64,000 nt of DNA from Trypanosoma brucei (taxonomy: Eukaryota), in contig CH464491.1 of NCBI GenBank assembly GCA_000002445.1, positions 2,464,001 through 2,528,000 of the forward strand, written 5' to 3'. A program made the translations under genes and the position numbers. Shown here piece by piece: positions 24,444 through 53,235 of the stretch; the first letter of the stretch is position 1, and each line of letters begins with the position of its first letter. The notes below the pieces were generated by a model that worked only from the letters and a program-made list of their open reading frames with translations, did no database searches and had not been told where the DNA came from.

Positions 24444-24867
24444 ATGCACTAACAGACCTTAGCGCAATCGAGGTATTGGTGTAAAGTCGGTCAATTGTAG
24501 GCGAGTATGCATCAGTGCAAGGGCTGACAAATATTTCCCTGCAGCTGCCATGTTCGGCTGCCCTTTTGATCATCCAAACGGGTCAGTTAAACCATAGAGC
24601 GTGAGACATGCGAATAAACGTAAAGCTTTGGAGGTATATCTCCGTTACACGCTGCCCATGTGATAGGATGGCGCCTGAATGGATAAGGAAAGCGAGCTGA
24701 TGGCAGGAAGAAATGTGAATCCCATTATTTGTTGTGTGGAAATTATATGTGGATGTGAGAGTGAGAGTGAGGTTGGTAAGTTGATAACTGTACGTGTGGC
24801 GGTGATACGACACCCCACTGAATAAGATGCTTCATCAGTATCTCCTTCCTCTTCATGCCAATTCAAA
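24444..24867 (-). repeat. Copy A of a 0.42-kb dispersed element, SIRE-like by size, inverted relative to copy B
   Basis: Reverse-complement of 52818-53235 with one mismatch seen (24656 g vs t), aligned by hand. Intergenic, ends 64 bp upstream of the ATG at 24931. Confidence 0.85.
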
Positions 24868-24930
24868 CCAGCTGCATATATACGCCCGTCTGCGGAGTAG
24901 GAAACGCAAGAAAGAGAGACAAGAGACAAG

Positions 24931-26175
24931 ATGGGATGTCAACAAAGTGGAGTGCGAATGTCTCCTCAGGACCTTAGTGATCGCACTCCCAGTGGTCAAC
25001 ACGGGTTTACAGGGGATGCCAGCAACACGGCACTTCCCACTGTTCCAACAGACTCATGGTATGGTAAAAACTTTAGTGAAACATCACGTATGGCATTTAC
25101 CGAGTTTCACTTAAAGCAGCGGGGAAACATCGTTTTCGCCGGGACCCCCGTTCCTGTTGGCGCCTCGGAATTGGGTGAGTTCCCTGGCAACTCCCCACCG
25201 CTGCTCACAAGGGCAGTTATTGGCAAGGACAATGTGTACGGCATGGCGTACCTCTATAGCACTCCACTTTCCATTGAGCATCAGTGGAGACTGCGTGTAT
25301 GCCACTACCAAATAGCGTGTTCACCCTCTGGACAAACGCTAGGGGAAGTGCCGGGGGCGCTTTCTACACTTCCTGAGACCCCAACGACAGATGAGCAGAA
25401 AATCAGACTGTGGAACTTCGCTAAACAAGTCTACGACCGGCCGCTTTGCGACACTTTTGTTGGGATCAAAGTGTATGTTGACGGAGAGCTTGTGCCCGAC
25501 CGTTATCCGAGAGCCAAAAGTCTCCCAAACTGCACAGCTACACTCGAATCTAGTGAAGTGTTTAATAACTGGACCTGTGTTCCTTTTGTACTTGTTGGTT
25601 ACGTGAACAGTCCGATGATAAGTACTGTTACGATGTACAGGCACCTGTCCCTTAGCTTCGTTGAGTACTTGTTGGGCAAAACCATCACGGGTGGAGAAAC
25701 CGACAGAACAAAAGATGAAGAGGTGGCGGAATGTAAAGACGAGAATACCGTTGGGGATGGACGTAGTGTGGACGCGCCCGATAAGCCGAAGGAGGAGGTC
25801 ACCCAGTCTTTCAATGTTTCTGTAGAGGTTGTGTACGGTTGTGAGGCGGAGATGAATTTCTGCACAGCCCACATTGCGAAGGGGAACATAGAACTTGTTA
25901 TGGGAGAGCACTCAGACGCAGCTTTACGAAAATATAAGGCTTCACTTGAGGAGTTTCTTAGGAAAAGCGGCAACGAGCGTCATCAGGTAGTTGCGGTGGA
26001 TCCTTTGACACTCAAAGGGCGGAACTCGGCATTATGGACTTGTTTGTTTTGCGGGTCTCCCCTGCAGTTCACGTGTACGATTTGCGGCGCCGAGCTGTGT
26101 GGAATGTCTTCGTGTGTGTGGAAGCCCTTCACGGGGTATCCGCTTGGCTGCTCGTCTCATAAGGCGCAGGCGTGA
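24931..26175 (+). CDS. Hypothetical protein (414 aa) with an N-terminal dual-acylation motif and a C-terminal Cys cluster
   Basis: Starts MGCQQSG (Gly2 for myristoylation, Cys3 for palmitoylation). C-terminus CLFCGSPLQFTCTICGAELCGMSSC resembles a zinc finger. Lies immediately downstream of repeat copy A. Confidence 0.55.
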   Translation: MGCQQSGVRMSPQDLSDRTPSGQHGFTGDASNTALPTVPTDSWYGKNFSETSRMAFTEFHLKQRGNIVFAGTPVPVGASELGEFPGNSPPLLTRAVIGKDNVYGMAYLYSTPLSIEHQWRLRVCHYQIACSPSGQTLGEVPGALSTLPETPTTDEQKIRLWNFAKQVYDRPLCDTFVGIKVYVDGELVPDRYPRAKSLPNCTATLESSEVFNNWTCVPFVLVGYVNSPMISTVTMYRHLSLSFVEYLLGKTITGGETDRTKDEEVAECKDENTVGDGRSVDAPDKPKEEVTQSFNVSVEVVYGCEAEMNFCTAHIAKGNIELVMGEHSDAALRKYKASLEEFLRKSGNERHQVVAVDPLTLKGRNSALWTCLFCGSPLQFTCTICGAELCGMSSCVWKPFTGYPLGCSSHKAQA

Positions 26176-27000
26176 GGGTGACTCCCCAAGTTTTTGAGAT
26201 TCAGTTTCTGTATACGTTTCGTTTCGGTGTTATCATTCACCATTACTACTGTTTTCTCAACATCAACCCACTGAGCACGGATGTGCATGTGGGGTATTGT
26301 ATGTCTCTGGGCACTGGCAACGACGCAGGGGGAACAAATGTCCGAACTGGCCGGCTGCATATTTGGCAGATTCGGCTCTACTAAAAATGACGCGAAATGC
26401 AAAAAGGGATATACGTTATCTCCGTACTAATCTTTGCGCCTCCTTACGTGGTGTCAGTTATGAAGCTAATCTGCCTACCGCCCCCCCCCTCTTCCATTGA
26501 AACCCCGGTGTATACTTTTCGTTTTCTTTGTACTTTTCCTTTACTTCTTTTGTTTGTATATTTTATAATAAGGAAGTGGCTAACCTGTTGCTTATGGAAG
26601 TCAGTCGCGTTTTGTGCATGCAACATTGTGCTTAAACTTCAAAAACATTAAAGATAAAATAACGCATTGCACATCCTTCTTTTGCTTTTAATATGGTGTT
26701 GCATCTTGCCGACTGTCCGCCAACCTCGTTTTGCGCCACCAGCCTGTTTTCATTCTTCTTTTCTTTTATGTGTGTGTTATACTTCTCATGCGTTGTTAAC
26801 ACCACTGTAGTTTTCCACCTGTAGGAAACGCCAGGTGCGCCACGGCATCCAAAGGGTTACTCAGCAGAAACCTTACAAGGAAGCCAATTGTCTAACACGC
26901 TGCTGTGGAGGTTTCTATCTGCACCATTTTCCATTCATACATATACGTATACCGATTTCTTTACCCGAATATTTATTTTAAAAAAAACCGTACTCGGGCG

Positions 27001-29586
27001 GTTCTTGAAATGCTATCCAAGTTATTCCGGTATGACACGAAACTTCAGGGGAAGCAGGAACTCAGTACCGCTGATCACAGGTCGTTACTTGAGCTTAGTA
27101 TGACAGACAACATTACATCCGTAGAGATTCCGCAGTACAGGGTGCGGGGGACGTTTGTTGAGTATGTGATTGAGTGCACAAAACGAAACATGACGTGGCA
27201 GGTGTTTCGGCGTTACCAGCAATTTAAGGCACTTGACCAGAGTCTGAAACAACTATGCTCACGCGGATCCTCAAGGCACTGTGACTACGGGGTCATTCCT
27301 GTCCTCTGCGGTAGCCACTGGACGGAAGTAACTAACCAGTCAATCGACCTCGTAGAAAAACGGCGGAGGCACTTGGAAATTTACCTCCGCCAGTTGCTCG
27401 TCCCGGGGAATGTATTTTATGTTGCTAAAACCGTGATTTACGATTTTCTTCACGATGGCGCGGTTCCTGCGCAGCACCAAAGGAGGGCCATACGACCGCT
27501 AATTGGCTTTGCAACGCCAGACTCGTTGGCAGACCTCCACTTGGAAAACAGGAACGGCGAAGGGAGTGCGAGCCGGTTAGGGGCGGCCTCAACTCTCAAC
27601 GATAAATCGATTTCTATGCTTGGGCCATCTGCTGTTGGTGAAAGTGATCGAGTGGATGATGGTGTCGGGGACGAAGAAGAGGAGCCCTGCAAATCACCTC
27701 CAGGAGAGACCGTAGAGAGCGGTGAGGAATGTGAAGATTTACCATCAGCTGACAACAGTGAAGCTGAGGACGTGCGTGTGCCGCCACCAGGCTCCTTGTG
27801 CAGGCAATGTAACGCTGAGTTTTCTTCTGTGCTGTATCCGCATCGTTGTTTCTTCTGTAGGCAACAGTTTTGTCGCGACTGTTTGCACCCAGTCGAACTT
27901 GAAGAAGGAGAGGTCGCTAGATCATGTGTTCAATGTTATGAAAACTTTGCTCGAAAGACCTGTAAACCCCAATATCCCCCAACTCCCATGGCTTCAACAC
28001 CAATACTTCAGTGCGCACCTGCTGGTGGTGCGTTGGACCCGTTGAACTTACTCGGTAGTACGTCCCACGTGCGAACAGATGTAACACTTTCTGACTTTAA
28101 GTTAGTTACAACTGTGGGACGTGGCACGTTTGGCAAAGTGATGAAAGTTATCTTTCGTGAAGATGGCAAGGTTTATGCTATGAAAGTGCTCAACAAGTGT
28201 GTTATTCACAAGCGGCGAATGATCGAGTACATCAGGGAGGAGAAGAATATCATGTCCTCTTTACCCTCGCATCCGTACATTGTAACATGTCACTTCGCAT
28301 TTCAGACTGACTACCATCTTTTCTTCGTACTGGACTACCTCCCTGGTGGAGACATGCACTCGCGTGTTTACCCTAAACTCAAACTAACTGAATCGGATGT
28401 CCGTTTGTATATTGCTGAACTTGTACTCGCACTCCAACATCTGCACCGTCACGACATTGCCCATCGTGACGTCAAGCTCGAAAACATTGTCTTGGGAGAA
28501 GACGGACATCTTAAACTGACAGATTTTGGGCTGGCACGCATGAATTTCTCACGGCAACGCCGTCGCAGTTTTGTGGGGAGTCCGGAGTACCTTCCGCCAG
28601 AAACGATTCAGGGGAAGTACCAAACGAAGGCTGTGGATTGGTGGAGTGCGGGGGTCATGCTGTACGAAATGCTGAGTGGGAAGACGCCGTTTTACTCGGC
28701 GTACAATTGTGAAATCTACAACAATGTGTTGAAGGCGGAGTTGGACCTCACAGCCCCGTGTTTCACGCCAGAGGCCGCCTCACTCATTGAACAACTGCTT
28801 CAAAGCCATCCAAAAGCAAGGTTGCAAGACGCAGGGGCAATAAAGGCTCATCCTTACTTTGCATCAATCGATTGGGCTGCTCTCGAAGGTAAAAAAATAT
28901 CTGCCCCCATACAGCTTGATCTTATGGGAAATGATATGAAATACATCAAATGGAAGTTCACGGCGGAGTGGGCTGTTATATACAAACCTCCTGGAGTGAC
29001 ACGTGCTACAATTGACCTTTTGATTAATCGCTTTAGTAACTTTGCTCATGTGAGCGAGGGGACGCCGCCCACGCCGCATCTGCCGATAGGGCAGCAGCAG
29101 GAAGAGGTATCTGACGGAGTGACAAACCCACCGGATATAACCGGCGTTTGGAATGTTGTCAAGGTAGAGATGCAAACGGAGGATGGAAAGATCACGCATC
29201 CTTGGGGAAGTGCAGTGTGTGGAGTGCTAGCGTACTTCCCAGAGGGTCAGTTCAGCATGCAGCTTACATCATATATGCGTCCACATTTGCGGCAACAGTT
29301 CGTGGATCGTGCCGTGAGAGAGGATCTGGTAGAAATGTGCAACTCGTACGCGGGCAGTTTCGGAAAGTATCAGATCAAGCCAGGGAGCAATATCATTACT
29401 CACAGGCTTCACGGCTGCCTCTGTCCGAATCTTACAGGAAGTACACAAAAGTATTTTTTTGAGGTTCGTGAGAGGAAAGAAAATGGGGCTAAAGTGTTGA
29501 AACTTTTTACCGCGTGTAACGCGCTCCCAGGTGAAGACATCTCCGCACAAACCGTCCTCACATGGGAACGGACGGGTTCCTGCTAA
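27001..29586 (+). CDS. PX-domain / FYVE-like zinc finger / AGC-type Ser/Thr kinase / C-terminal lipocalin-like domain protein
   Basis: PX-like region YRVRGTFVEYVIECTK...RRYQQFKALDQSL...RRRHLEIYLRQLL. Cys-rich finger CRQCNAEF...CFFCRQQFCRDC...CVQC. Kinase motifs GRGTFGKV, AMK, HRDVKLENIVL, DFGLA, SPEYLPPE. C-terminal ITGVWNVVKVEMQTEDGKITHPWG...GVLAYFPEG resembles the bacterial lipocalin-like fold. The ORF opens at 26905, but those codons overlap the pyrimidine tract, so ATG 27001 (MLSKLF) is preferred. Confidence 0.8.
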   Translation, partial: VLEMLSKLFRYDTKLQGKQELSTADHRSLLELSMTDNITSVEIPQYRVRGTFVEYVIECTKRNMTWQVFRRYQQFKALDQSLKQLCSRGSSRHCDYGVIPVLCGSHWTEVTNQSIDLVEKRRRHLEIYLRQLLVPGNVFYVAKTVIYDFLHDGAVPAQHQRRAIRPLIGFATPDSLADLHLENRNGEGSASRLGAASTLNDKSISMLGPSAVGESDRVDDGVGDEEEEPCKSPPGETVESGEECEDLPSADNSEAEDVRVPPPGSLCRQCNAEFSSVLYPHRCFFCRQQFCRDCLHPVELEEGEVARSCVQCYENFARKTCKPQYPPTPMASTPILQCAPAGGALDPLNLLGSTSHVRTDVTLSDFKLVTTVGRGTFGKVMKVIFREDGKVYAMKVLNKCVIHKRRMIEYIREEKNIMSSLPSHPYIVTCHFAFQTDYHLFFVLDYLPGGDMHSRVYPKLKLTESDVRLYIAELVLALQHLHRHDIAHRDVKLENIVLGEDGHLKLTDFGLARMNFSRQRRRSFVGSPEYLPPETIQGKYQTKAVDWWSAGVMLYEMLSGKTPFYSAYNCEIYNNVLKAELDLTAPCFTPEAASLIEQLLQSHPKARLQDAGAIKAHPYFASIDWAALEGKKISAPIQLDLMGNDMKYIKWKFTAEWAVIYKPPGVTRATIDLLINRFSNFAHVSEGTPPTPHLPIGQQQEEVSDGVTNPPDITGVWNVVKVEMQTEDGKITHPWGSAVCGVLAYFPEGQFSMQLTSYMRPHLRQQFVDRAVREDLVEMCNSYAGSFGKYQIKPGSNIITHRLHGCLCPNLTGSTQKYFFEVRERKENGAKVLKLFTACNALPGEDISAQTVLTWERTGSC

Positions 29587-30015
29587 TCTCTTGCCTATAC
29601 GCTTCCCTGCCCCGTTAAATAATGGGCTGTTGCTGGGCCTCTCCCGTTGCTACTCTTCCCTGTTGCCTCCAATGTACCCAAACACGCTCATCTCACTGTT
29701 GGAGCCGTACAATGTGCTTCCATCTGCTGCTAGTGACTGATAAGGTGGGACAGTCTGGCGGCACCTTTTTTCTATCTCTCTGCCGTGGCACGGCTGCTGT
29801 ACAGTTCGGGGTATCGATTTCTCATAGCGCATCTTTTTCTTTTTTTCAGAAACACCCCTCTGTTATTGCCATTTGTCGAACGAACTCTTACCTTCATATG
29901 CTATTAATCATTCTCTGGTCACAAGTTGACGAATTTCTAGGACAAGAGAACGACAGAAGTAGAGGTAAAAAGAAAAAGGTGACCGCGGCACTCTTCTCTT
30001 TGTGCATCGTGTAGC

Positions 30016-32022
30016 ATGCTCTCCAGTGCGCTGAGGTTTGTAAAACCCGTCAAGCGGATGACGGCAACTGCTGGAAGGATCGTTTTTTCTAGCATCACAA
30101 ACACCCAGAAACGCGTAAGCACATCATCACAAGCCACAACCAAGTCGACTTTGGTTCTCTCTGATGAGGACCGCAAGCTAATGCCTCAGGGGATCGCACA
30201 ACCTACCATAGCGGAGCCCGGTGGAGTTAATGCACAGCAAGAACCAAGGAACGCTTCAGATACCATGGATGCAAGTACCGCTGTAGGGATCGGGAACCTT
30301 CGCAGAGGAAATAGCGGTGCATCCACACATGCTGGTGGTTATGCACCGTGGGAAATCCGCGCGCTCCTTGTTCCACTGTTGCCTGTAGGCAACACCTTTG
30401 TTCACATAAGTAGCGTCATCCACCTTCTTCCTTCGGCAGCACGGAAGGAAATGGAGCGTGAGGGGACACCCCTTCAGTACATAGAGAAATATCTATCGGA
30501 CAGTGTTATTGTCAGGGGGAGCCTGCTCTCGCGCATCACAACAGGTGCAAGCAGTTGTGACAAGGGGAATGGATGTAACAAAGCTTCTGTTGCGCCGCCA
30601 CCGCCTCCCATTTCCGTTGGTCGTGCAAGCGGTCCAGCTTCACAGCAGCAGCAGCAGCAGCAGGGCTTGCCTCCGCGAGGTGGTGCGGGTGCGAAAACAA
30701 CTCTTGAAGTGTTGGATATGTTAATTGAATTCATTCCAACCTTCTTTGTACAACACCAGATGGTAGCCGACCAGTTGCCGTCTGAAATTACAAAGCAGTT
30801 TGCTGACAGTAGTTTTCTTTATTATCTCAAGCGGTTCCGTCACTACATTGACATACGTGCCAGCCACGGGAACACTGAAATCCGGCTCCGCCCCGATTTT
30901 TCACACCCTAAGCGGGGTGCAGCTGATTCTCTCTACACCACTGGACTGAGCAGCAATGACATATTGAGCCAACTCGCCCGCGGTCGAAGGCCACCACGAC
31001 ACTCAGAGGCCAACTTAATTCAATTCATAGTGCCACGAATGCCCATCGAATACACTCCAATAGCTACCGTCCTGCAGGATGTGTCAGATATCGTCTCCCG
31101 CCATCCCTCCTTTGATCCTCGTCTCGGGGTAACGGGTCTCTTCGAGAAATACCCAGAATATTTTCAGATCACTGACTCCAAACTGCGAGTTCGGCCGTTT
31201 CGCAGTGCGCCAAATTCATTGGATGATTTGAACGCTACTACCTCACCCCTACCTGCTATATACGAGAAGGTTAAGCAACTGGTGGATGCACAGGCCGAGG
31301 GAAAGGACTACAGTAAAGAGTCAGAGAAGGCAGCTGCCATTGTGCCGACTGGTAAACTATACGCGCTACTTACTAACGTAGAAAAAACGGAGGTAAAAGC
31401 AAAATGTCGCTCCTTCCCGCGTTTCTTGCGGCTGCACGGCGAGGAGATTGTGGTATCTGTGGACAGCATGAAGGTGTACAAGTTCCGGCCAACGTATGAA
31501 CCCTGCGCAGAAACTCTTATGGATCAGCGGCTTATGATGAGTTCACTCTCCCCTAGTGACCCCGTACTAAAGATACCAGCCACAATGGAGGAAAGCAGTT
31601 CTGCTGACTGGGCCGTACGGGAGCTGTACGACGCGTTGCCGCTTATGCAGTGTGCTGAACTTAGTGAAGTGATGTCGCTCGTTCCGCCCTCCATAAGGGA
31701 TGCACTGCCAAAGGAGCTGGAGAAGCTTGTGGAACATTTGGCATTGTATCCCGACTACTTCGCCACCTGGCCCTACCCCGACGATCCCACTGTGATGGTG
31801 GTTCAGCGAGCAAAGCTGGAGCCGTTGCACTTAAAGAACGAAGACATTGTGAGGATGGTTCTTTCGTTTATTCCCCAGGGCGGTATTGAAGCGCACAAGC
31901 TGATGCGTCGCGTCCCGCTTCCTCTTCAAAGACACTTCTACCGCCACGGGTTGAAGAGGGTGCTTGGCGAACTTAAGGACTACTTTTTGATTGTTGGTGA
32001 TAAGGTTATGCGCGTAGGTTGA
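30016..32022 (+). CDS. Hypothetical protein (668 aa) with a possible mitochondrial presequence and a polyQ tract
   Basis: N-terminus MLSSALRFVKPVKRMTATAGR is basic and amphipathic, like a presequence. (CAG)n-encoded Q8 at 30642-30665. Long uninterrupted ORF in the same orientation as its neighbours. Confidence 0.55.
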   Translation: MLSSALRFVKPVKRMTATAGRIVFSSITNTQKRVSTSSQATTKSTLVLSDEDRKLMPQGIAQPTIAEPGGVNAQQEPRNASDTMDASTAVGIGNLRRGNSGASTHAGGYAPWEIRALLVPLLPVGNTFVHISSVIHLLPSAARKEMEREGTPLQYIEKYLSDSVIVRGSLLSRITTGASSCDKGNGCNKASVAPPPPPISVGRASGPASQQQQQQQGLPPRGGAGAKTTLEVLDMLIEFIPTFFVQHQMVADQLPSEITKQFADSSFLYYLKRFRHYIDIRASHGNTEIRLRPDFSHPKRGAADSLYTTGLSSNDILSQLARGRRPPRHSEANLIQFIVPRMPIEYTPIATVLQDVSDIVSRHPSFDPRLGVTGLFEKYPEYFQITDSKLRVRPFRSAPNSLDDLNATTSPLPAIYEKVKQLVDAQAEGKDYSKESEKAAAIVPTGKLYALLTNVEKTEVKAKCRSFPRFLRLHGEEIVVSVDSMKVYKFRPTYEPCAETLMDQRLMMSSLSPSDPVLKIPATMEESSSADWAVRELYDALPLMQCAELSEVMSLVPPSIRDALPKELEKLVEHLALYPDYFATWPYPDDPTVMVVQRAKLEPLHLKNEDIVRMVLSFIPQGGIEAHKLMRRVPLPLQRHFYRHGLKRVLGELKDYFLIVGDKVMRVG

Positions 32023-32729
32023 AGAACTCTAACATTACGTGAATCCACTGTTGTGATCACGCGAATAAAAACATTGATGATGGTGACACTTGAGCTACCG
32101 GTTAGCATACCGAGCGTGGAATTTCTTGGGTTGTGACTTCCGCATGCACGGAAGGATGGGCGCAGCATCATTGAGTCCAGAACGCGTGGGTTTGCGGCGA
32201 GTGGTTGACGCTAACAGAAATCATCACCGAGGTAACTTTTGAGAAGGATACAGAAGTTTGTTTGTGTGTGTGAAGCGTGGTGTCGCCACTGAGGATGTTT
32301 CTGGTGATACTTTCTGGCCACGAAAGGCTGATCCTTTTTATCGCCTAGTATTTCCATATTATTGATGACCGTTACTCTTCCCTTCACACAGGGTCACACA
32401 CGGCATATTCAATTCTTGAGTATAACAACTCTCACGCTTGCCTTCGTTTTCGTTATCATTCTTGATTATCCTGTGCATAGTACTAGGTAAGTAGAAGTCA
32501 GAATCAATTTCAGTGACTAGAATTGTTCCGTTTCCCACCTGTGGGAAAAGTTACCTATCCGTTAGGTTATATTCGCTTCGTTGTACATATACACAAGCAC
32601 TCGAACATTTTTATTTCGTTTTTGTTTTCAGGATAGTGTCGGTGTTTTGTTTTTACCTTTTCGAAGTTTAGTGGTATACTCTGTTGCTCACACTTTTGCT
32701 CGTGCGCACCTTTGAGTTCGCTTGGCTAA

Positions 32730-40252: not shown

Positions 40253-40311
40253 CATTTTTCTCTTATTCCCTTCCCCCACTGTCTTATTTTACACGTGTAT
40301 TTGTTGCAAAG
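40253..40311 (+). promoter_or_regulatory. Polypyrimidine tract plus AG immediately upstream of the preferred PUS7 start codon
   Basis: tttttctcttattcccttcccccactgtcttattttacacgtgtatttgttgcaaag|ATG. Confidence 0.5.
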
Positions 40312-43014: not shown

Positions 43015-43227
43015 TGTGACTTGTTTTAAGAGTTCTGAACAGAACAAATGATCAGTAAAATGGACTTTCTTCCCTGCATTTCCCTTGTATGTGCTCGTGG
43101 GAAAGCAGGCGTGTATATTGCACACTCTGGTCGGTTCCCTTTGCTGTTCAACCTCTCTTTTTTTGTATCAATAATGCCCGTCGTTTGGTTTTGTACTTTT
43201 TTGGGAAGGGGTCAGGCCTTATAAAGG

Positions 43228-44013
43228 TTGGCGGCTCATTTTTCTCGCCCGTGTGCATCTAGTAATAGGCAAGCAGCAGGTTTAAATAGCTGCCCAGTAG
43301 GGTTTGAGTTGGTTCTCCCCTTTCCTCACTCGTATATAAGTTTAATTTCGTCTCTACGCATTAGTGTTTACGCACGCATGTATCGCTCAGTGGGAGAAGC
43401 AGTCGGACGGACCCCTAAGCAGGACGCACCGCCATACGACCCCTCTCTTTGGGAAGGAAAGGATTGTGCATTCATCACAGTTCTGAAAGAGGCTCATGAA
43501 AGGCAACAACGGCAGGAGCGCCACCGCGACGCACAGCACGGCGGAGTCGACGAGGCTGGCTTGGCGGCTCCCCACACCTCCCATATTCAGCTGACATACA
43601 CACCAACAAGTTGGTGGGAAAGGCTTATGTTGAAATTGTTCCCTCGGTATTATGCCTTACGGGTCATGGCAAATAGTGATATTTCCCGACTGAGCAATGA
43701 AGAACTTGTAATGCGGATGCATCTCGCCCTTCAGGCGGGAGACGGTGATTTCTCTGCCCTCATAGCGCAGGAGTTGGCTCGGAGACGTGTGTATCTGTAC
43801 CGAGAGGAGGTTACCACTGTGAATACAACCCCTGGGGGTGCGGCAGTTAGGCGAAACAACTATAGAGGGATGGGAAGTTCTGACGAAGGGGTTGGTATTA
43901 TGCGTGCGAGGTATTCGGACAGTGCAGTAAAGCAAGGTGCCGTCAGCCATGTTGCAGATTCGTCATTTACGGTGCCAGAGTTTCTGCTGAGGCGTCCCTC
44001 ATACGGTGGATGA
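43228..44013 (+). CDS. Hypothetical protein (about 210-260 aa)
   Basis: ORF in the same orientation as its neighbours. An alternative start is ATG 43378 (MYRSVGEAV). No recognised domain. Confidence 0.45.
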   Translation: MAAHFSRPCASSNRQAAGLNSCPVGFELVLPFPHSYISLISSLRISVYARMYRSVGEAVGRTPKQDAPPYDPSLWEGKDCAFITVLKEAHERQQRQERHRDAQHGGVDEAGLAAPHTSHIQLTYTPTSWWERLMLKLFPRYYALRVMANSDISRLSNEELVMRMHLALQAGDGDFSALIAQELARRRVYLYREEVTTVNTTPGGAAVRRNNYRGMGSSDEGVGIMRARYSDSAVKQGAVSHVADSSFTVPEFLLRRPSYGG

Positions 44014-44424
44014 GGTTTCCGCTGCTTTCGGCTGCCCGTACACGTGGACACAACCGCAGCATGGCAGGCAAAGGGCTGGGAAAGGAGAAGCTGGGACACT
44101 GAAGTAAGTAAATGCTGGAAAAGAGGTAAATCGCGGTGGTGTTACATTACTACAAAACTCAGGTTGCACTGGCAGCTGAATTTTTTCACTCCTCTGTGCA
44201 TGGTGTCTTGTTTGAGGGAGATGATGTAGCTTCAAACTCGTTAATTCCTGTTGTTTTGATTCCTTGGAAAGGATTTGGTGAGCACGCTCACATGGTTCTC
44301 TTTTGTGTTTGTTTGTTTTCCCTTCGCACACGCCTACAACGTAAGACACACCAATTCACCACGAGGCGGCACGCCCTCAGCTCCGCACGGTCCTCCCGTG
44401 TTGGTGTGCACGCAGGCCTGACGA

Positions 44425-47321: not shown

Positions 47322-48155
47322 CACAGTAGGCAGTTGTTATTTTGATATTAAGCTTTTTTCCTTGGTGGGCATCCCGCACACCGTCTACACCTTGTGTTTC
47401 CTTGGTAAGTGAACCATCGCTTAATAATTCGTGGGTTCGCTAGAACCTCAAGTTCGATGGCGGAGGTCAATGCCTGCCCCTGAGCACCCTGATGCGGAAA
47501 ATAGACCCGCTAACAATGTTGCGTGTTGATTCCGGTTCTACAGAAAGTTGAAAAGGCACCCATCTGGGGGATGCAGCGAGGGGCGAGTAAACTCATGCAA
47601 AATGGGTCGAAGAACATCGCAAAACGAAGGTAGACACCGGCTTTTCTGCCGGTTCACTGCCGACCTCCATATCACTACTCTTATCTGGAGGCATAGAATA
47701 CAGGAAAACTGGTGAGACTGCGCGGTTACGGTAAGATTATTAAACTCTGATGCGTGGTTTCTGGTGCCAGGATTTGTTTCAGATGGCAGTTTAGGCGTCA
47801 ACATTTGTCTCATAGAAAGGCTTTGCGCGCATGAGTCACCACTTTTCCCGAAACACCAACAAGAGAGTATTCCCTTGGTGTTTCCAGTTGACCCCTATGT
47901 GTACCTTGTTGTTGTACATTTACTTTTGACACGGTCAACACCTTCCCACCGAGTTGTATGGTGGGTGGGCTAAAAAGTTGCGTGGATTTTTGTATTCCAC
48001 GTTTTGTTGTTGCTATTCGCGGGTGCGAAGCTCTTTGATATGCGTTGCTCTCCTCCCCTCTTCCTCGGCCCACGCTATGTTTTACTTCTTTGCAAACCCT
48101 CTTTACGCGTTGACTACGCTGGCAACAAGGCTGAGAGATCGCCGGAATCCTTAAA

Positions 48156-49202
48156 ATGGAGTGGGTTCCGTGCACCGAGCAGACGGGGTCGGTGGGCTGC
48201 CGCGAGGGGCACTGCGCAACCTCTCTTCAAGAAAAAAGTACTGGAGAAGAATGGGTTTTGGTTGTTGGGGGATATTGCGAAGGGGAGCGCGACGGCGCGG
48301 TTATGGCAGCGCGAGCAGATGGACTGCCGATGCTACGATGGGTTCGGCTGGATAAGCCCAACATGACGTGGTTCGAATGTGATGGGGCTTCGCTAACGCA
48401 CGTAACTGGCGACACCGCCTACTTCTTTGGTGGATTAAACGAGCACATGAATCACAGTAATCAGTTACTCTGTCTTTCCCTGCATCAGGGGCAACAGGGT
48501 GATCTTTCCCTCGATGTGGTGAAGGTAGAGACAACAGGAGACGTCCCTCTTCCGCGCGCGAGGCATTCAGCTGGTAGTGCCGGGCGGTATTTCGTTGTGT
48601 TCGGTGGTGAAACGGAAGATGCTGAACAAAATAATGACGGATACATCCTGGACACCGACACAATGGTATGGACACGAATTCCAACAGGGCACCAGGTGCC
48701 CAATCCACGACTTCTCGCCGGCCCTCTTGTGTTCTACTCACCCCACGGGTGCATACTTTACGGTGGGGCACACTTTGTGAACGGCGATATAAGGAGTATG
48801 TCTGACGTGTGGAACCTGCACATCCCGCTGGGAGGCACATGGTTTAACGTTTCCTATGGGGACGGCGCCCCCGCCTGTCGCTTCCCGAGGTCGAATGGTC
48901 ACGCCGGTGGCGTTCTGGGGCGGGTTGGGGGAGAAACTGTAGTGTTGTTTGTTGGAGGAAAGGATGCCGCTGAGGGGTGTGACAGAGTAAAACAGGTGCA
49001 GCCTCCGAAATCTGCTGAAGACAAATTCCATCTTCGTCTGGTAGACCCCGTGTTGGCTGGTGGTGAGGGCCCGCACTGGCGGTACACACCAGCAGCGGTA
49101 GATACACGACGTGGCGTATTGCTTTTGGGTGGTCAGTGCCGTCATCCACAGGAGGTTGCTGCCTTCCTACTAAAGCAGACGGGTGTTACTTTGCAACGGT
49201 AA
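48156..49202 (+). CDS. Kelch-repeat (galactose-oxidase-like beta-propeller) protein
   Basis: Repeated kelch-like units: GHCATS...WVLVVGGY, AYFFGGLNE, YFVVFGGE...W, ILYGGAHF, VVLFVGGKD, VLLLGGQ. Confidence 0.65.
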   Translation: MEWVPCTEQTGSVGCREGHCATSLQEKSTGEEWVLVVGGYCEGERDGAVMAARADGLPMLRWVRLDKPNMTWFECDGASLTHVTGDTAYFFGGLNEHMNHSNQLLCLSLHQGQQGDLSLDVVKVETTGDVPLPRARHSAGSAGRYFVVFGGETEDAEQNNDGYILDTDTMVWTRIPTGHQVPNPRLLAGPLVFYSPHGCILYGGAHFVNGDIRSMSDVWNLHIPLGGTWFNVSYGDGAPACRFPRSNGHAGGVLGRVGGETVVLFVGGKDAAEGCDRVKQVQPPKSAEDKFHLRLVDPVLAGGEGPHWRYTPAAVDTRRGVLLLGGQCRHPQEVAAFLLKQTGVTLQR

Positions 49203-49537
49203 CAAATAATCAACAAGGTGGAATCAGTGGAGACAATTTGGAGAGATAGTGCAGTACTGCGCCCTACTGAATTCGGGGTTGTTTCGTTATTATCGTTTAC
49301 GTTTCGTACGCATTTCTTGTTTGTCTTCGCTTTTTTTGGATATGCGTGATGTGGCGCGTCGTTTTCACACAGCCTTTTTCCCTAATGTTAGCCCTCCAAA
49401 CCCTCACCCCCTCAATCTGAAGAAAAAGAGAGGGGCTTTCGTATCCTCAGGACTCGACCGCAAGTATGTCTTTAATTTTTTTTTGTATCATCCCTCATCC
49501 GTTCACCCGCACAAAGTGTTCCAAGGTGTCGATCATC

Positions 49538-50731
49538 ATGCAGATGTTGGCCCCTGGTGCTTTCTTCAACGCATTAAAGGTCCGGGGGGTTACACACTTT
49601 TTTGGAGTTCCTGACCCCATTCTAAAATATTTCTGTGCCTTCGTGGCAAGTCACACGACACCGAAGGAACACATCATCACAGCAAACGAAGGGAATGCAG
49701 TGGCCATGGCTGCAGGTTACCATCTTGCAACTGGGGGACTCCCTTTGGTGTACATGAAAAACAGTGGCTTAGGCGATGCACTCAATCCCCTGATCTCTCT
49801 CACACACGCTGAGGCGTGCAGCATTCCCATGTTTATAGTCGTTGGTTGGCGAGGAGCTCCTGATGCTGGAAATGAGCTACCGTGTGCCGCAGAAGGGCGC
49901 TTGACCGAAGGAATCCTACGTGCTGCTGAGGTCCCGTATATCATTTTATCTTCTGCTTGTGGAAACGGGGAGCAGTCGATGGAAACAGCTCTGGATATGG
50001 CACTGAAGCACGTGCATAATTCAAGGACGCCCTATGCCTTTTTGGTACCACCAAACTTTTTTGAGGAATGCGCTTACGAAGGGGTTGGAGAAGGTATTGC
50101 TGAGCTTCCCATGACTCGCAGGGAGGCGGTTGAACAAGCACTGCGCCAAATAGACCGGGGAGATATAGTTGTGGGCGCCGCAAGCTTCCTTGCTCGTGAA
50201 ATCTTTGAAGTTCAGGAGTGTGCCGGGATGCGACACGGCCCACAATTCTTCCCAGTCGGCAGCATGGGTCATTGTTCTTCCGTAGCAGCGGGTATAGCAT
50301 TGGCCAAACCAGAAAGGCAAGTGTTTTGCTTTGATGGAGATGGCGCATTCCTTATGCACATGGGTTCATCAGCAACCATCGGCGGTGTAGCCGCCATACA
50401 TTTAATAGGTACGGGCGAAACTTCCCTCATGCGCAACTACAAACATGTCGTTTTCAACAACGGATCCCACGATTCGGCAGGTGGTCAACCCACTGTGTCT
50501 TTTGATGTATCCCTCACGCAAGTGGCGAGTGCGTGTGGTTTTAGGACTGTCCGCGAAGAACCCGTAATGGACCTTGGCGAAACTGTGCGGGCCCTTCAGG
50601 AATTAAAGAAGGCGGAAGGGCCCGCGTTCTTGGAAGTATTTGTGCGAAGGGGCGGCCATTCAAACCCACAATGTGAACTTCCCTCTTTAGATGAGAGCAA
50701 ACAAGCTCTCACTAACTGCTTGAGGGGCTAG
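49538..50731 (+). CDS. ppd: Phosphonopyruvate decarboxylase-like thiamine-diphosphate enzyme (Ppd/AepY family; sulfopyruvate decarboxylase is the alternative)
   Basis: FFGVPDPILKYFCAF...HIITANEGNAVAMAAGYHLATGGLPLVYMKNSGLGDALNPLISL...VVGWRG matches the bacterial Ppd N-terminal block FTGVPDSLLKDFCAY..HIITANEGAAIALAAGYHLATGKIPLVYMQNSGLGNTVNPLLSL..IGWRG. A C-terminal TPP-binding region is present (GSMGHCSSVAAGIAL...FDGDGAFLMH). The ORF opens at 49466 across a pyrimidine tract, so ATG 49538 or 49544 is the likely start. Confidence 0.8.
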   Translation: MQMLAPGAFFNALKVRGVTHFFGVPDPILKYFCAFVASHTTPKEHIITANEGNAVAMAAGYHLATGGLPLVYMKNSGLGDALNPLISLTHAEACSIPMFIVVGWRGAPDAGNELPCAAEGRLTEGILRAAEVPYIILSSACGNGEQSMETALDMALKHVHNSRTPYAFLVPPNFFEECAYEGVGEGIAELPMTRREAVEQALRQIDRGDIVVGAASFLAREIFEVQECAGMRHGPQFFPVGSMGHCSSVAAGIALAKPERQVFCFDGDGAFLMHMGSSATIGGVAAIHLIGTGETSLMRNYKHVVFNNGSHDSAGGQPTVSFDVSLTQVASACGFRTVREEPVMDLGETVRALQELKKAEGPAFLEVFVRRGGHSNPQCELPSLDESKQALTNCLRG

Positions 50732-51000
50732 TAATATCAGAGTACGCGGAGGGTGAGAAACGGCATATATGTGGATCAACACCTCGTTTGAGCGCTATTA
50801 AACGGGTATCGGGGGGGGGGGACCTGTGGGGAAACAAAAGAGGAAGTCGCTTTATTTTCTCACAATCAAACCCAAACAATTTGGTAGTACCAATGGAAAG
50901 GGAGGAGGAGCGAGTGAACGCAAGTAGTGAAGTAGAAGGGATGAACCCAACCAACAAGTCAAATGTTATCTTCCACTGTTACCCCTCATCTCTCTAGTAA

Positions 51001-52605
51001 GTGACGCTCCGACGTGGCTGGGGTGAAGACAGAAGTTCTGCTCCGTACCGGCTGAAGTGCGTAGGAAAGGCAAAACTAACAAGCATTTCTCAAGCGGCCC
51101 GCAATAGAAACATCGCTGAAAAGAAAGGGGGAATGTTAAGGCGTACAATTTTCCTGGGAAGGGTAACCCGCTCTTGGACCAAAGGATCTATAGTTAAGGC
51201 ATCGGCCCATTTCCCAGATTCTGTGAGGGCTGATCCCGCAGAAAGACGTAATGAAGACTCGTCTCCGAAGGAAAGCCGCACATGGTCTCTTCATGACGGC
51301 CCGTGCAGCGAACCTCTTCACGTTCCCAAACATATTCAATGGGCAACACAGAAGGTGAGAGTTTGGGGGCAACTAATGCGAGTGGATAAGGCTGCTGCAA
51401 TAAACCTCCTGCTTCAACCTTGTTACTGGGGAGCCAGTCTAGCAGTAACTCGGGCCATCGTCTGGGAGGGGGCGGATCCTGTCGTTTTGTTCGCTCCTTT
51501 CATTCCCGTACATTTGATCGTCCTGTTCGGCGCTGGTGCCTTTTTGGCTCGGGGTGCGGGTTGTATTATTAACGACATGTGTGACAGAAAGTTCGACCGA
51601 ATGGTAGAACGCACCAAAACACGGCCGCTTGCTAGCGGTGTTGTCAGCATGAAGGAGGCATCAGGCCTTCTCATAACAGTAGCTGGTTTTGCGCTTGTTA
51701 TTGCACTAAACCTGTCGCCCATGGCACTTGCTTCGGCGGTAGCGTTAGCTCCCATCGCGGCAGTTTATCCGCTCATGAAGCGTATAACCTACATGCCTCA
51801 GCTCGTTCTGGGACTTTGCTTCAACGGCGGCATTTTTGTTGGGTATGCTGCCGTGCTAAACCGCATTGATTTGGCCGTTACGCTTCCTATCTACTGCTCA
51901 GCCGTCGTGTGGACAGTTTTGTATGATACCATCTATGCGTACCAAGACAGGGCGGACGACCTGAAATGCGGTGTGAAGAGCTCGGCTATTCTTATTGGTG
52001 ACAGGAAGCATATTCTCACTTTCATGATACTCCCCATCGGCATGGGTATTCTTATTTCGGGATTGATGGTCTCACAGTCGCTTCCGTTTTACATCGGTGT
52101 CCTCTGTTGCGTTTGGTACCTTCAGGGTGTCGTTGATAACGTCAACATATACGATGCGTGGTCATGTGGTATGGGATTCCGCAGGAACGTACGATTTGCC
52201 ATCCTGGTTACTTTTTCTCTCTGCCTTGGAAACGTGTTGTGGGCACTCGCATCTGAGCACCAACCGGAAAAGGACGCCGCGAGCAACGCCATATCGGAAA
52301 AGTCGGCCTTGATGAAATTCCTTCTTTTGAATAAGGAAGCGGAACCCATGTCGTACAGCGTGCAAGATATTCGTTGGGTAGACCGTTTTGCGCATCCGGC
52401 ATTCGTGGCAGCGCAGAAGGCTCAACACGAGGGAGAGGAAAAAACGGTGGTGGTGCCGGCGTGGATGCGGCGTGAGTACCTGGGTGAGAATGTAGGGACT
52501 ATCATGCGCTTTTTTGGCGTTGACGAGGAAGCAATCCAAACTTGGCAAAAGTGGTGGTACGCGCAACTTGACCACTACAACATGTTCTCCAGCATCGCCG
52601 TTTAG
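51001..52605 (+). CDS. COQ2: 4-hydroxybenzoate polyprenyltransferase (UbiA/COQ2 family) with N- and C-terminal extensions
   Basis: UbiA motifs NDMCDRKFDRMVERTKTRPLASG (Asp-rich motif 1) and YAYQDRADD (motif 2), with multiple TM helices. Basic N-terminal region (alternative start at 51133, MLRRTIFLGR) fits mitochondrial import. About 130 aa of non-UbiA C-terminal tail. Confidence 0.8.
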   Translation: MTLRRGWGEDRSSAPYRLKCVGKAKLTSISQAARNRNIAEKKGGMLRRTIFLGRVTRSWTKGSIVKASAHFPDSVRADPAERRNEDSSPKESRTWSLHDGPCSEPLHVPKHIQWATQKVRVWGQLMRVDKAAAINLLLQPCYWGASLAVTRAIVWEGADPVVLFAPFIPVHLIVLFGAGAFLARGAGCIINDMCDRKFDRMVERTKTRPLASGVVSMKEASGLLITVAGFALVIALNLSPMALASAVALAPIAAVYPLMKRITYMPQLVLGLCFNGGIFVGYAAVLNRIDLAVTLPIYCSAVVWTVLYDTIYAYQDRADDLKCGVKSSAILIGDRKHILTFMILPIGMGILISGLMVSQSLPFYIGVLCCVWYLQGVVDNVNIYDAWSCGMGFRRNVRFAILVTFSLCLGNVLWALASEHQPEKDAASNAISEKSALMKFLLLNKEAEPMSYSVQDIRWVDRFAHPAFVAAQKAQHEGEEKTVVVPAWMRREYLGENVGTIMRFFGVDEEAIQTWQKWWYAQLDHYNMFSSIAV

Positions 52606-52817
52606 TGTCAAGACATGCTGCTAGCAGAGGGGAACATGGAAAAGCAACTGCGACTTGTGGGATTTGTCTTCATTGGACGGTCTGGGATTTGTTACTGAAA
52701 GAAGGTAAGAGATGGTTCAACAGCAGTCAAATAAACAAAATATATATATGTACATCGTTACCCCCCGCTCCCTCTCTACCCCCATTTTTCAGCACGGTCA
52801 GAAATACATGTGTCTGT

Positions 52818-53235
52818 TTTGAATTGGCATGAAGAGGAAGGAGATACTGATGAAGCATCTTATTCAGTGGGGTGTCGTATCACCGCCACACGTACAGTTA
52901 TCAACTTACCAACCTCACTCTCACTCTCACATCCACATATAATTTCCACACAACAAATAATGGGATTCACATTTCTTCCTGCCATCAGCTCGCTTTCCTT
53001 ATCCATTCAGGCGCCATCCTATCACATGGGCAGCGTGTAACGGAGATATACCTCCAAAGCTTTACGTTTATTCGCATGTCTCACGCTCTATGGTTTAACT
53101 GACCCGTTTGGATGATCAAAAGGGCAGCAGAACATGGCAGCTGCAGGGAAATATTTGTCAGCCCTTGCACTGATGCATACTCGCCTACAATTGACCGACT
53201 TTACACCAATACCTCGATTGCGCTAAGGTCTGTAT
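52818..53235 (+). repeat. Copy B of the same 0.42-kb element
   Basis: See copy A. Lies in the intergenic region between COQ2 (ends 52605) and the LRR gene (starts 53432). Confidence 0.85.

What the first reader, a model, noticed from the sequence alone, without database searches (positions are those of the whole stretch)
24444..53235. Near-identical inverted repeat pair of about 420 bp bracketing a 28-kb, ten-gene block
24444-24867 is the reverse complement of 52818-53235, with one mismatch found by hand over about 420 bp. Both copies are intergenic within the same + strand transcription unit. Near-identity implies recent transposition, duplication or gene conversion. The size matches the 428-bp T. 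cruzi SIRE short interspersed element, which is known to sit in intergenic regions and donate processing signals. Copy A ends 64 bp before the ATG of the dual-acylated protein gene, so it may supply that gene's spliced-leader acceptor or UTR. Inverted copies this similar are also substrates for inversion of the intervening block (PX-kinase through COQ2) by homologous recombination.
Basis: seen in the sequence. Interest (0 to 1): 0.7.

Follow-up and report, generated by a model that had tools for sequence, protein, structure and literature searches.

The report
Inverted 426-bp repeat in T. brucei
Two almost identical 426-bp non-coding segments in opposite orientation flank an 11-gene stretch of Trypanosoma brucei chromosome 11; they are an old local duplication kept alike by gene conversion, not the T. 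cruzi SIRE element, and one copy lies next to a published small-RNA-producing site.

Summary
The repeat is real. Arms 24446-24871 and 52814-53239 are reverse complements (4 mismatches in 426; 1 in the 416-bp core), 27.9 kb apart, and form the only long inverted repeat in the window.

The organism is Trypanosoma brucei brucei TREU927 chromosome 11, not T. cruzi, so the SIRE reading fails. The element has no poly(A) tail, target-site duplication, terminal inverted repeats, ORF, Rfam match or RIME primer sites.

Both arms sit at the same positions in T. b. gambiense and T. b. equiperdum. Gene order is the same in all three, so no inversion was seen. No core site separates all A arms from all B arms, and variants are shared across arms. 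This indicates an old duplication homogenised by gene conversion.

Arm A ends with a polypyrimidine tract plus AG 59 nt before the MGC... gene. Arm B lies antisense between UbiA/COQ2 and Tb11.01.1140. Published probe primers identify Tb11.01.1140 as a gene of siRNA locus CTU48.

Both arms are transcribed in the same direction, so their RNAs are complementary. That makes them a plausible, untested dsRNA/siRNA source. Genome-wide copy number could not be measured. Interest is modest.

The parts
24446..24871 (+). Arm A of the inverted repeat (426 bp). It lies between Tb11.01.1010 (474 aa, stop at 22590) and Tb11.01.1020 (414 aa, ATG at 24931).
   Evidence: Present at the orthologous site in T. 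b. gambiense (L001 9516-9941) and T. b. equiperdum IVM-t1 (L004 13265-13689). The assignment of 1010/1020 is by numbering from Tb11.01.1030, an AGC kinase, and Tb11.01.1140.
52814..53239 (-). Arm B of the inverted repeat (426 bp, reverse complement of arm A). It lies between the UbiA/COQ2-type gene (stop at 52605) and Tb11.01.1140 (ATG at 53432).
   Evidence: Orthologous copies are at L002 9383-9808 (T. b. gambiense), L007 12833-13258 (IVM-t1) and L003 1-397 (T. equiperdum OVI, cut by a contig end).
24452..24867 (+). Homogenised 416-bp core (pairs with 53233-52818). It has 1 mismatch in TREU927 (24556 G/T). The edge positions 24450-24451 and 24868 are fixed A-versus-B differences in every lineage.
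24841..24871 (+). Polypyrimidine tract TCTCCTTCCTCTTC (24841-24854), then the first downstream AG (24870-24871), which are the last two bases of arm A. This is a candidate trans-splice acceptor for the 414-aa gene and would give a 59-nt 5'UTR.
   Evidence: The general rule for T. brucei (polypyrimidine tract upstream of the AG; poly(A) site about 100 nt upstream of the tract) is from PMC9639853. Use of this site is inferred, not shown.
24252..24371 (+). Alternative acceptor: a 19-nt polypyrimidine tract (24252-24270) with the first AG at 24370-24371, 75 nt before arm A. If this site is used, the whole arm lies in a 559-nt 5'UTR. With the arm removed, the 5'UTR would be about 134 nt.
   Evidence: inference.
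53273..53313 (+). Polypyrimidine tracts (53273-53283 and 53285-53296) and an AG (53312-53313), probably serving Tb11.01.1140. They place the expected poly(A) site of the UbiA/COQ2 mRNA inside arm B, so most of arm B (antisense) would lie in that 3'UTR.
   Evidence: together with the rule in PMC9639853; inference.
24872..52813 (+). The 27,942-bp block between the arms, with 11 + strand genes: the 414-aa MGC... protein, PX/kinase/lipocalin (Tb11.01.1030), a 668-aa protein, a 763-aa kinase-like protein, BTB_SANBR, TruD, a ~211-aa protein, an XPD-type helicase, a Kelch protein, a TPP enzyme ('phosphonopyruvate decarboxylase-like') and UbiA/COQ2.
53432..61824 (.). Published siRNA locus CTU48. It comprises Tb11.01.1140 (53432-55294, +, the last gene of the + array), the convergent strand switch (~55.3-58.0 kb) and minus-strand genes up to Tb11.01.1170 (59143-61824).
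   Evidence: The probe primers in Additional file 4 of PMC3447711 match the window exactly at 53435-53457, 54015-54039, 61199-61223 and 61779-61803.

Best explanation
The feature is a non-coding inverted duplication of about 426 bp on chromosome 11 of Trypanosoma brucei (subgenus Trypanozoon). Only these two copies were seen in the DNA available here.

Shown: both arms were already in place before T. b. brucei, T. b. gambiense and T. b. equiperdum separated. Since then they have been kept alike by occasional gene conversion between the arms (non-crossover recombination).

Inferred: crossovers, which would invert the 28-kb block and turn 11 genes antisense to RNA polymerase II transcription, are not seen and would probably be lethal.

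Inferred: both arms lie in untranslated or intergenic RNA of one polycistronic unit. Arm A carries a polypyrimidine tract and AG that can serve as the spliced-leader acceptor of the next gene. Arm B lies antisense in the probable 3'UTR of the UbiA/COQ2 mRNA.

Both arms are transcribed in the same direction, so their RNAs are perfectly complementary over about 416 nt. By the processing rules, about 225 nt of this would be retained in the two neighbouring 3'UTRs. The likely consequence is formation of double-stranded RNA in trans and processing into siRNAs. This is what happens at the seven published long inverted repeats of T. brucei and at the convergent site CTU48, which starts just after arm B. 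The siRNA step is inferred, not shown.
For: Organism and locus.

The repeat is real and unique in the window.

Both arms are orthologous in DAL972 and IVM-t1, with spacers of 27,942, 27,984 and 27,960 bp.

Gene conversion: no site in the 416-bp core separates all A arms from all B arms. Position 24476 is T/T in TREU927 and C/C in gambiense. Variant 24688A is found in gambiense A, gambiense B and IVM-t1 B. Variant 24790C is found in gambiense B and IVM-t1 A. The within-genome arm differences (1, 5 and 4) do not exceed the between-lineage differences (0-7). Fixed A/B differences occur only at the edges (24450-51 and 24868).

Not a mobile element or RNA gene.

Splice signal at the end of arm A and probable 3'UTR position of arm B: with the rule in PMC9639853.

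siRNA context: all seven known T. brucei long inverted repeats give AGO1-bound small RNAs (PMC3447711). CTU48 gave 7,394 reads, falling to 0.6% of wild type in dcl2-/- cells, and is anchored to this window by exact primer matches. Most of the 182 predicted natural antisense transcript pairs, of which 171 are trans pairs, yield small RNAs (PMC3683921).
Against: Genome-wide copy number could not be measured, because no T. brucei genome is searchable with these tools. 'Two copies' therefore holds only for this ~64-kb window and its orthologous loci in the other lineages.

The repeat is not among the seven inverted repeats listed by Tschudi et al. Their repeats span only 3.6-12 kb end to end, against about 28.8 kb here. 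With co-transcriptional processing, an intramolecular hairpin across that distance is unlikely.

No small-RNA, splice-site or poly(A) mapping data for the arms could be accessed.

Divergence of the arms between TREU927 and gambiense (0.9-1.4%) is like that of neighbouring intergenic DNA (1.1-3.2%), so there is no sign of purifying selection.

In gambiense, 5 of 416 core positions break the complementarity.

mRNA of Tb11.01.1140 did not change in dcl2-/- cells, so siRNAs here may have no effect on gene expression.
Confidence: 0.6

Rival explanations
1. The two arms are copies of an undescribed dispersed, mobile or once-mobile short element of T. brucei. One possibility is a solo remnant of TbVIPER terminal repeats, analogous to SIRE in T. 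cruzi. Further copies would exist elsewhere in the genome.
For: The element has sharp boundaries with no flank homology. Its length is close to the 428-bp SIRE. VIPER remnants are reported in T. brucei (PMC6681497). The shortest published T. brucei inverted repeat (IR1 on chromosome 2) has 422-bp arms, a length coincidence I could not test. The T. equiperdum OVI contigs break inside the arms.
Against: There is no target-site duplication, terminal inverted repeat, poly(A) tail or ORF. There is no third copy in the window. Both arms are fixed at identical sites in three lineages. A peptide search from the element found only one spurious gambiense ORF, which overlaps arm B. Contig breaks are expected for any two-copy inverted repeat in short-read assemblies.
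Confidence: 0.15
2. It is the T. cruzi SIRE element.
For: Only the length (426 vs 428 bp) and the intergenic position next to a splice acceptor.
Against: The DNA is from T. brucei, not T. cruzi. SIRE is defined as the ends of T. cruzi VIPER.
Confidence: 0.01
3. It is a RIME/ingi retroposon fragment, the abundant ~500-bp repeat of Trypanozoon.
For: RIME is the only known short, high-copy repeat in T. brucei (about 500 copies; PMC3149022).
Against: None of the eight RIME LAMP primer target sites (PMC6324077) occurs in the element within 6 substitutions, and none occurs in the window within 3. There is no A-tail, no flanking direct repeat and no long ORF.
Confidence: 0.02
4. Each arm is a gene for a structured non-coding RNA (a snoRNA or other small RNA), duplicated for dosage.
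For: It is non-coding, lies in an intergenic position and is conserved within Trypanozoon.
Against: There is no Rfam hit at gathering score, and only chance-level hits at E up to 10. There are no tRNAs. Folding energies are no better than shuffled sequence (z = -0.67 and -0.17). The opposite orientation in a one-directional transcription unit means that only one arm could give the sense RNA.
Confidence: 0.03
5. It is a neutral relic with no consequence for RNA: a duplicated piece of spacer that recombination happens to homogenise, and whose transcripts are discarded or never meet.
For: There is no excess conservation relative to neighbouring spacers. Complementarity has decayed at 5 sites in gambiense. 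The arms are 28 kb apart. Tb11.01.1140 mRNA is unchanged without DCL2.
Against: T. brucei has an active RNAi pathway, and every long inverted repeat examined gave siRNAs. Arm B adjoins a strong DCL2-dependent siRNA cluster. The processing rules place parts of both arms in mature 3'UTRs.
Confidence: 0.3

Closest known systems
Long inverted repeats of T. brucei (IR1-IR7; Tschudi et al. 2012, PMC3447711)
   Same: Same organism. Arms of 422 bp or more that are 99-100% identical within a genome. The authors likewise remark on the unexplained high identity. The arms lie in chromosome cores transcribed by RNA polymerase II.
   Different: This pair is not in their list; the chromosome 11 entry IR7 lies at 4.22 Mb and has 1,814-bp arms. 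Their repeats span only 3.6-12 kb in total, whereas here 27.9 kb and 11 genes separate the arms. siRNA production is shown for theirs and is not shown here.
Convergent-transcription siRNA locus CTU48 (same paper)
   Same: It is physically adjacent. The first CTU48 probe gene, Tb11.01.1140, starts 193 bp after arm B. The locus is DCL2-dependent.
   Different: CTU siRNAs are attributed to overlapping convergent transcription, not to repeats. Whether the reads reach arm B is unknown.
Trans natural antisense transcript pairs of T. brucei (Zheng et al. 2013, PMC3683921)
   Same: These are two transcripts from different loci with long perfect complementarity. Most such pairs yield small RNAs.
   Different: Membership requires both arms to be present in real transcripts, which is only predicted here. 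Their table of pairs was not available.
SIRE / VIPER of T. cruzi
   Same: Similar length, an intergenic location, and a possible donor of trans-splicing signals.
   Different: Different species. No element hallmarks are present, and sequence relatedness could not be tested.
RIME / ingi retroposons of T. brucei
   Same: A short repeat in the same genome.
   Different: No poly(A) tail, no target-site duplication, no ORF, and no RIME primer sites.
Arm-to-arm gene conversion in large palindromes (for example human Y-chromosome palindromes and plastid inverted repeats); comparison from general knowledge
   Same: Inverted arms are kept nearly identical by intrachromosomal gene conversion while the flanks diverge.
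   Different: Those arms are kilobases to megabases long and carry genes. These arms are 426 bp and non-coding.

Membership tests
SIRE (T. cruzi short interspersed repetitive element) | Occurs in the T. cruzi genome | tested here: not met
   The window is T. b. brucei TREU927 chromosome 11.
SIRE (T. cruzi short interspersed repetitive element) | Sequence consists of the 5' ~185 bp and 3' ~220 bp of VIPER (PMC6681497) | not testable with these tools
   No SIRE or VIPER reference sequence could be obtained.
SIRE (T. cruzi short interspersed repetitive element) | Length about 428 bp | tested here: met
   The arms are 426 bp. This is a resemblance in length only.
SIRE (T. cruzi short interspersed repetitive element) | Highly repeated and dispersed in the genome | not testable with these tools
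   There are only two copies in the 64 kb. No eukaryotic genome search was available.
RIME / ingi non-LTR retroposons | 3' poly(A) tail and flanking target-site duplication | tested here: not met
   Neither arm has an A-run at either end, and the flanks share no direct repeat.
RIME / ingi non-LTR retroposons | Sequence similarity to RIME (GenBank K01801) | tested here: not met
   Eight RIME LAMP primer target sites (PMC6324077) are absent from the element at up to 6 substitutions. This is an indirect test that covers only part of RIME.
T. brucei long inverted repeats (Tschudi 2012) | Arms of about 400 bp or more that are at least 99% identical on one chromosome | tested here: met
   426 bp at 99.1% identity; the 416-bp core is 99.8% identical.
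T. brucei long inverted repeats (Tschudi 2012) | Arms close together (whole structure 3.6-12 kb), allowing fold-back of one transcript | tested here: not met
   The arms are 27,942 bp apart, with 11 genes between them.
T. brucei long inverted repeats (Tschudi 2012) | Source of AGO1-bound 22-25-nt siRNAs | not testable with these tools
Arm B adjoins CTU48. Placing both CTU48 probes inside the published 10-kb interval forces its start between window 51803 and 53435. Arm B is included for about 62% of those placements.
Trans natural antisense transcript pair | Two transcripts from different loci able to form a long duplex (BLAST E below 1e-9) | tested here: inconclusive
   Complementarity is met at the DNA level. 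Presence of the arms in mature transcripts is only predicted from polypyrimidine-tract positions.
Known structured RNA families (Rfam 15) | Match at gathering score | tested here: not met
Gene-conversion-homogenised duplicate | Paralogues share lineage-specific variants, with no fixed paralogue-specific differences, although the duplication predates the split | tested here: met
   Seven arm sequences from four assemblies were compared. There are 0 fixed A/B sites in the core. Position 24476 changes in both arms together (T/T in TREU927, C/C in gambiense). Variants 24688A and 24790C are shared across arms. The numbers are small (11 variable sites).

The most novel reading that the evidence does not exclude
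The repeat links a convergent-transcription siRNA cluster to distant genes. In this reading, DCL2-dependent siRNAs made at or next to arm B (CTU48) are perfectly complementary to arm-A-containing RNA 28 kb upstream. That RNA would be the 3'UTR of Tb11.01.1010 or the 5' region of the MGC... gene Tb11.01.1020. Alternatively, the two arm-containing UTRs pair directly. Either way, the inverted repeat would act as a built-in RNAi connection that couples expression of genes at the two ends of the block, and gene conversion would preserve the complementarity it needs.
Probability: 0.15. Interest if true: 0.55.

Novelty: new member of a known kind. Interest (0 to 1): 0.3.

Why it matters
If the arms do feed the RNAi pathway, this would be an endogenous T. 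brucei repeat whose two halves lie in different mRNAs of one polycistronic unit. That would give a simple, deletable test case for whether endogenous siRNAs regulate ordinary genes in trypanosomes, a question the 2012 survey left open.

It also shows that the published list of seven long inverted repeats is incomplete for widely spaced arms.

If the arms do nothing, the locus remains a clean small example of concerted evolution of inverted duplicates in a largely clonal parasite. It is also a practical warning for assembly: the block assembled as a separate 28,028-bp contig in T. equiperdum OVI.

Tried and rejected
- **Rfam and tRNA.** Rfam at gathering score over the whole window, Rfam at E up to 10 over the arm, and tRNA/tmRNA scans found nothing meaningful.
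- **RNA folding.** Folding of both strands gave no better energy than shuffled sequence.
- **ORFs and Pfam.** There are no ORFs or Pfam matches in any frame. The longest stop-free stretch is 82 codons.
- **Exact ORF look-ups.** Look-ups of six ORFs from the element in the 15-billion-protein collection found none.
- **Homology search.** A search with the 74-aa stretch found only a T. b. gambiense 'hypothetical protein, unlikely' that overlaps arm B. This says little about copy number.
- **Wasted search.** My third homology search used a chimeric 474+620-aa query to fetch outgroup loci for both arms at once. Low-complexity words swamped the candidate list and only one hit came back.
- **Outgroup.** The T. 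congolense spacer between the UbiA and Tb11.01.1140 orthologues (L006 499-1201) shows no similarity to the element. Spacers in general do not align between the two species, so this is uninformative. The arm A side in T. congolense could not be fetched.
- **Extended homology and target-site duplications.** There is no homology beyond the arms and no target-site duplication by eye.
- **Strand composition.** A test for which arm has the native orientation was not discriminating.
- **Contamination controls.** Searches against E. coli genomes, plasmids and JGI metagenomes found no match.
- **Literature.** I found no coordinates for the 'miscellaneous' chromosome 11 siRNA loci. The trans-NAT table of PMC3683921 is not held. 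No paper was found for the flanking gene IDs beyond a kinase phosphosite and a splice-variant note.
- **The 10-mer CGGAGTAGGA.** It occurs near both arms but is probably chance. It was noticed post hoc and is not conserved in gambiense arm A's flank.

Full report
**Observation**

The repeat finder on the whole window returns a single inverted pair, 24446-24881 and 52804-53239, with 27,922 nt between the arms.

A local alignment trims this to 24446-24871 against the reverse complement of 52814-53239. That is 426 bp with 4 mismatches, three of them at the edges (24450, 24451, 24868). Inside the 416-bp core 24452-24867 the only difference is 24556 (G in arm A, T in arm B).

A sensitive BLAST of the element against the window finds only these two copies. 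The 400 bp on either side of the arms align no better than shuffled sequence. The block between the arms holds 11 large + strand ORFs rather than ten, because the 414-aa gene lies inside it.

**Organism and locus**

The 414-aa protein after arm A is 99% identical to a T. b. gambiense DAL972 protein and only 42% identical to its T. cruzi orthologue. Several window proteins are exact matches to T. b. brucei TREU927 entries EAN79877-EAN79889, on a 5.26-Mb record. The window is therefore T. brucei chromosome 11, not T. cruzi.

PCR primers published for probes to Tb11.01.1140 and Tb11.01.1170 match the window exactly at 53435-53457, 54015-54039, 61199-61223 and 61779-61803. The 620-aa gene that starts 193 bp after arm B is therefore Tb11.01.1140.

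Tb11.01.1030 is an AGC kinase. That fits the PX/kinase gene at about 27.0-29.6 kb. By numbering, arm A lies between Tb11.01.1010 and 1020, and arm B between 1130 (UbiA/COQ2 type) and 1140.

**What the element is not**

- It has no tRNA and no Rfam family at gathering score, and only chance-level hits at E up to 10.
- Both strands fold no better than shuffled sequence (z = -0.67 and -0.17).
- The longest stop-free stretch is 82 codons, and none of eight translated stretches matches Pfam.
- It has no poly(A) run, no terminal inverted repeat and no flanking direct repeat.
- None of the eight target sites of the RIME LAMP primer set (PMC6324077) occurs in the element within six substitutions, or anywhere in the window within three. 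It is therefore not RIME.
- It matches nothing in E. coli genomes, plasmids or JGI metagenomes, so a cloning artefact is excluded.
- SIRE is a truncated form of T. cruzi VIPER (PMC6681497). Given the organism, only the length resembles it. That paper notes that VIPER remnants exist in T. brucei, and I could not test similarity to those.

**Evolution of the two arms**

Both arms are present at the same positions in two other assemblies:
- T. b. gambiense DAL972: L001 9516-9941 and L002 9383-9808.
- T. b. equiperdum IVM-t1: L004 13265-13689 and L007 12833-13258.

The spacers are 27,984 and 27,960 bp, against 27,942 bp here. Gene order and orientation are the same in all three, so no inversion is seen.

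In the T. equiperdum OVI assembly the contigs break inside the arms. The block forms its own 28,028-bp contig ending at window position 52849. This is what any two-copy inverted repeat does to a short-read assembly, and it leaves the orientation unresolved there.

An alignment of seven arm sequences gives eleven variable sites in the core:
- No site separates all A arms from all B arms.
- Position 24476 is T in both TREU927 arms and C in both gambiense arms.
- 24688A occurs in gambiense A, gambiense B and IVM-t1 B.
- 24790C occurs in gambiense B and IVM-t1 A.

The arm-to-arm differences within a genome are 1 (TREU927), 5 (gambiense) and 4 (IVM-t1). The differences between lineages range from 0 to 7. 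The three edge positions are fixed A/B differences in every lineage.

This pattern is what occasional gene conversion between old paralogues produces. It is not what a recent transposition produces. The numbers are small, and the IVM-t1 assembly may carry a few errors; it has one single-base gap.

Divergence of the arms between TREU927 and gambiense (0.9-1.4%) is within the range of neighbouring spacers (1.1-3.2%). There is therefore no sign of extra constraint.

**Position relative to RNA processing signals**

In T. brucei a polypyrimidine tract of 9-40 nt precedes the AG acceptor, and the upstream mRNA is polyadenylated about 100 nt before that tract (PMC9639853).

The last tract before the ATG at 24931 is TCTCCTTCCTCTTC at 24841-24854, inside arm A. 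The first AG after it is 24870-24871, the last two bases of the arm. If this site is used, three things follow:
- The 5'UTR of the 414-aa gene is 59 nt.
- The upstream Tb11.01.1010 mRNA would end near 24740.
- About 295 nt of arm A would lie in that mRNA's 3'UTR.

An alternative tract at 24252-24270, with an AG at 24370-71, would instead place the whole arm in a 559-nt 5'UTR.

At arm B the tracts at 53273-53296 and the AG at 53312-13 serve Tb11.01.1140. They put the expected poly(A) site of the UbiA/COQ2 mRNA near 53170. About 357 nt of arm B would then lie, in antisense, in that 3'UTR.

Under these rules the two 3'UTRs would share about 225 nt of perfect complementarity. All of this is inference from sequence rules. 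No mapping data were available.

**Link to published small-RNA data**

Tschudi et al. (PMC3447711) surveyed T. brucei for long inverted repeats and listed seven. Their arms are 422 bp to 10 kb, their identity is 99-100%, the structures span 3.6-12 kb in total, and all yield AGO1-bound small RNAs. This pair is not among them. Their chromosome 11 entry lies at 4.22 Mb and has 1,814-bp arms.

They also found siRNAs at all 49 convergent transcription sites. CTU48 (Tb927_11_01_v4 2,515,000-2,525,000) gave 7,394 reads. The level was 131% of wild type without DCL1 and 0.6% without DCL2.

The primer matches show that CTU48 is the convergent region in this window. For the 10-kb interval to hold both probes, it must begin between window positions 51803 and 53435. 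Arm B therefore lies inside it for roughly 62% of the possible placements. The distribution of reads itself is not available.

Northern blots showed no change in Tb11.01.1140 or Tb11.01.1170 mRNA in dcl2-/- cells.

Their list of siRNA sites 'with no clear features' includes six on chromosome 11, given without coordinates. Multi-mapping reads were assigned at random between repeat copies, which the paper states for IR3. Under the same scheme, arm A could appear as such a site. I could not test this.

Zheng et al. (PMC3683921) report that most of 182 predicted natural antisense transcript pairs, of which 171 are trans pairs, give small RNAs. Their table is not held.

**Explanation and alternatives**

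The best-supported account is an old inverted duplication of spacer DNA, seen here in two copies and homogenised by gene conversion. Crossovers would be removed by selection, because an inversion would put 11 genes, including an XPD-type helicase, TruD and COQ2, antisense in a polycistronic unit. The selection argument is inference.

The likely molecular consequence is that the two arm transcripts can pair and enter the RNAi pathway. I rate the structural and evolutionary part as well supported and the siRNA part as plausible but untested.

The main alternatives are as follows:
- The element belongs to an undescribed dispersed family. This cannot be excluded without a genome-wide search.
- The repeat has no RNA-level consequence at all.
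- SIRE, RIME, a structured RNA gene or an artefact. These are each rejected by a direct test or by the organism.

**Verdict**

The feature is a new example of a known kind, the near-identical long inverted repeats of T. brucei. It differs in its wide spacing, in having its arms in different intergenic regions of one transcription unit, and in lying next to a documented siRNA locus. It is of modest interest unless small-RNA mapping shows that the arms are an siRNA source with targets in trans.

Noticed in passing
window 53432-61824: The convergent strand switch in this window is the published siRNA locus CTU48 of Tschudi et al. 2012. Their probe primers for Tb11.01.1140 and Tb11.01.1170 match exactly. 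This gives old-style gene IDs for the whole window.
   Followed up: yes
window 24893-24902 and 53318-53327 (+ strand): The 10-mer CGGAGTAGGA occurs exactly twice in 64 kb (0.02 expected). Each copy lies a few bases downstream of the predicted splice-acceptor AG next to an arm, and both are in the same orientation although the arms are inverted. It was noticed post hoc, and the second base differs in T. b. gambiense next to arm A, so it is probably chance.
   Followed up: partly
L003 and L005 (T. equiperdum OVI contigs CZPT02001192.1 and CZPT02000897.1): The short-read OVI assembly breaks inside both arms. The 28-kb block forms a separate 28,028-bp contig, so its orientation is unresolved in that assembly.
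   Followed up: yes
L002 9277-9609 (T. b. gambiense), equivalent to window about 52708-53040: DAL972 annotates a 110-aa 'hypothetical protein, unlikely' (P0030) that overlaps arm B. It is the only database protein matching any reading frame of the element and is almost certainly a spurious ORF.
   Followed up: yes
window 57616-61579 versus L002 13153-21863: T. b. gambiense carries a tandem duplication of the unit made of the LplA-like 265-aa gene and the repeat-containing minus-strand gene (Tb11.01.1170 type). TREU927 and T. equiperdum OVI have one copy.
   Followed up: partly
window 59157-59782: Internal 147-nt and 51-nt direct repeats lie inside the 893-aa minus-strand ORF (Tb11.01.1170). 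The protein length differs between lineages (893, 887, and 777/987 aa).
   Followed up: no
window 18405-18728: An 18/36-nt tandem repeat array lies inside the 1,967-aa + strand ORF. The protein annotated at the orthologous position is 1,878 aa in gambiense and 1,899 aa in IVM-t1.
   Followed up: no
window 22591-24445 and 35022-38086: Two unusually long gene-free spacers (1.9 kb before arm A, and 3.1 kb in mid-block). The first holds a dozen polypyrimidine tracts between 22626 and 24270 (eleven of them from 23351 on), which suggests long or alternative UTRs or an unannotated transcript. The numbering gap at Tb11.01.1060 may correspond to the second.
   Followed up: no
L006 (T. congolense IL3000 contig CAEQ01001257.1): In T. 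congolense the orthologue of Tb11.01.1140 is followed by + strand VSG-like and ISG-like genes (VSG_B and Trypan_glycop domains; faint ISG65-75 match), not by the convergent lipoate-ligase-like genes seen in T. brucei. This points to a synteny break, or a misassembly, at the end of the transcription unit.
   Followed up: no
window 53432-55294: Residues about 50-200 of the 620-aa Tb11.01.1140 protein attract hundreds of weak matches in the representative search: 324 hits at E up to 0.001, most of those listed falling on that stretch and some hitting it many times in long proteins. This suggests a repeat-type domain that Pfam did not report.
   Followed up: no
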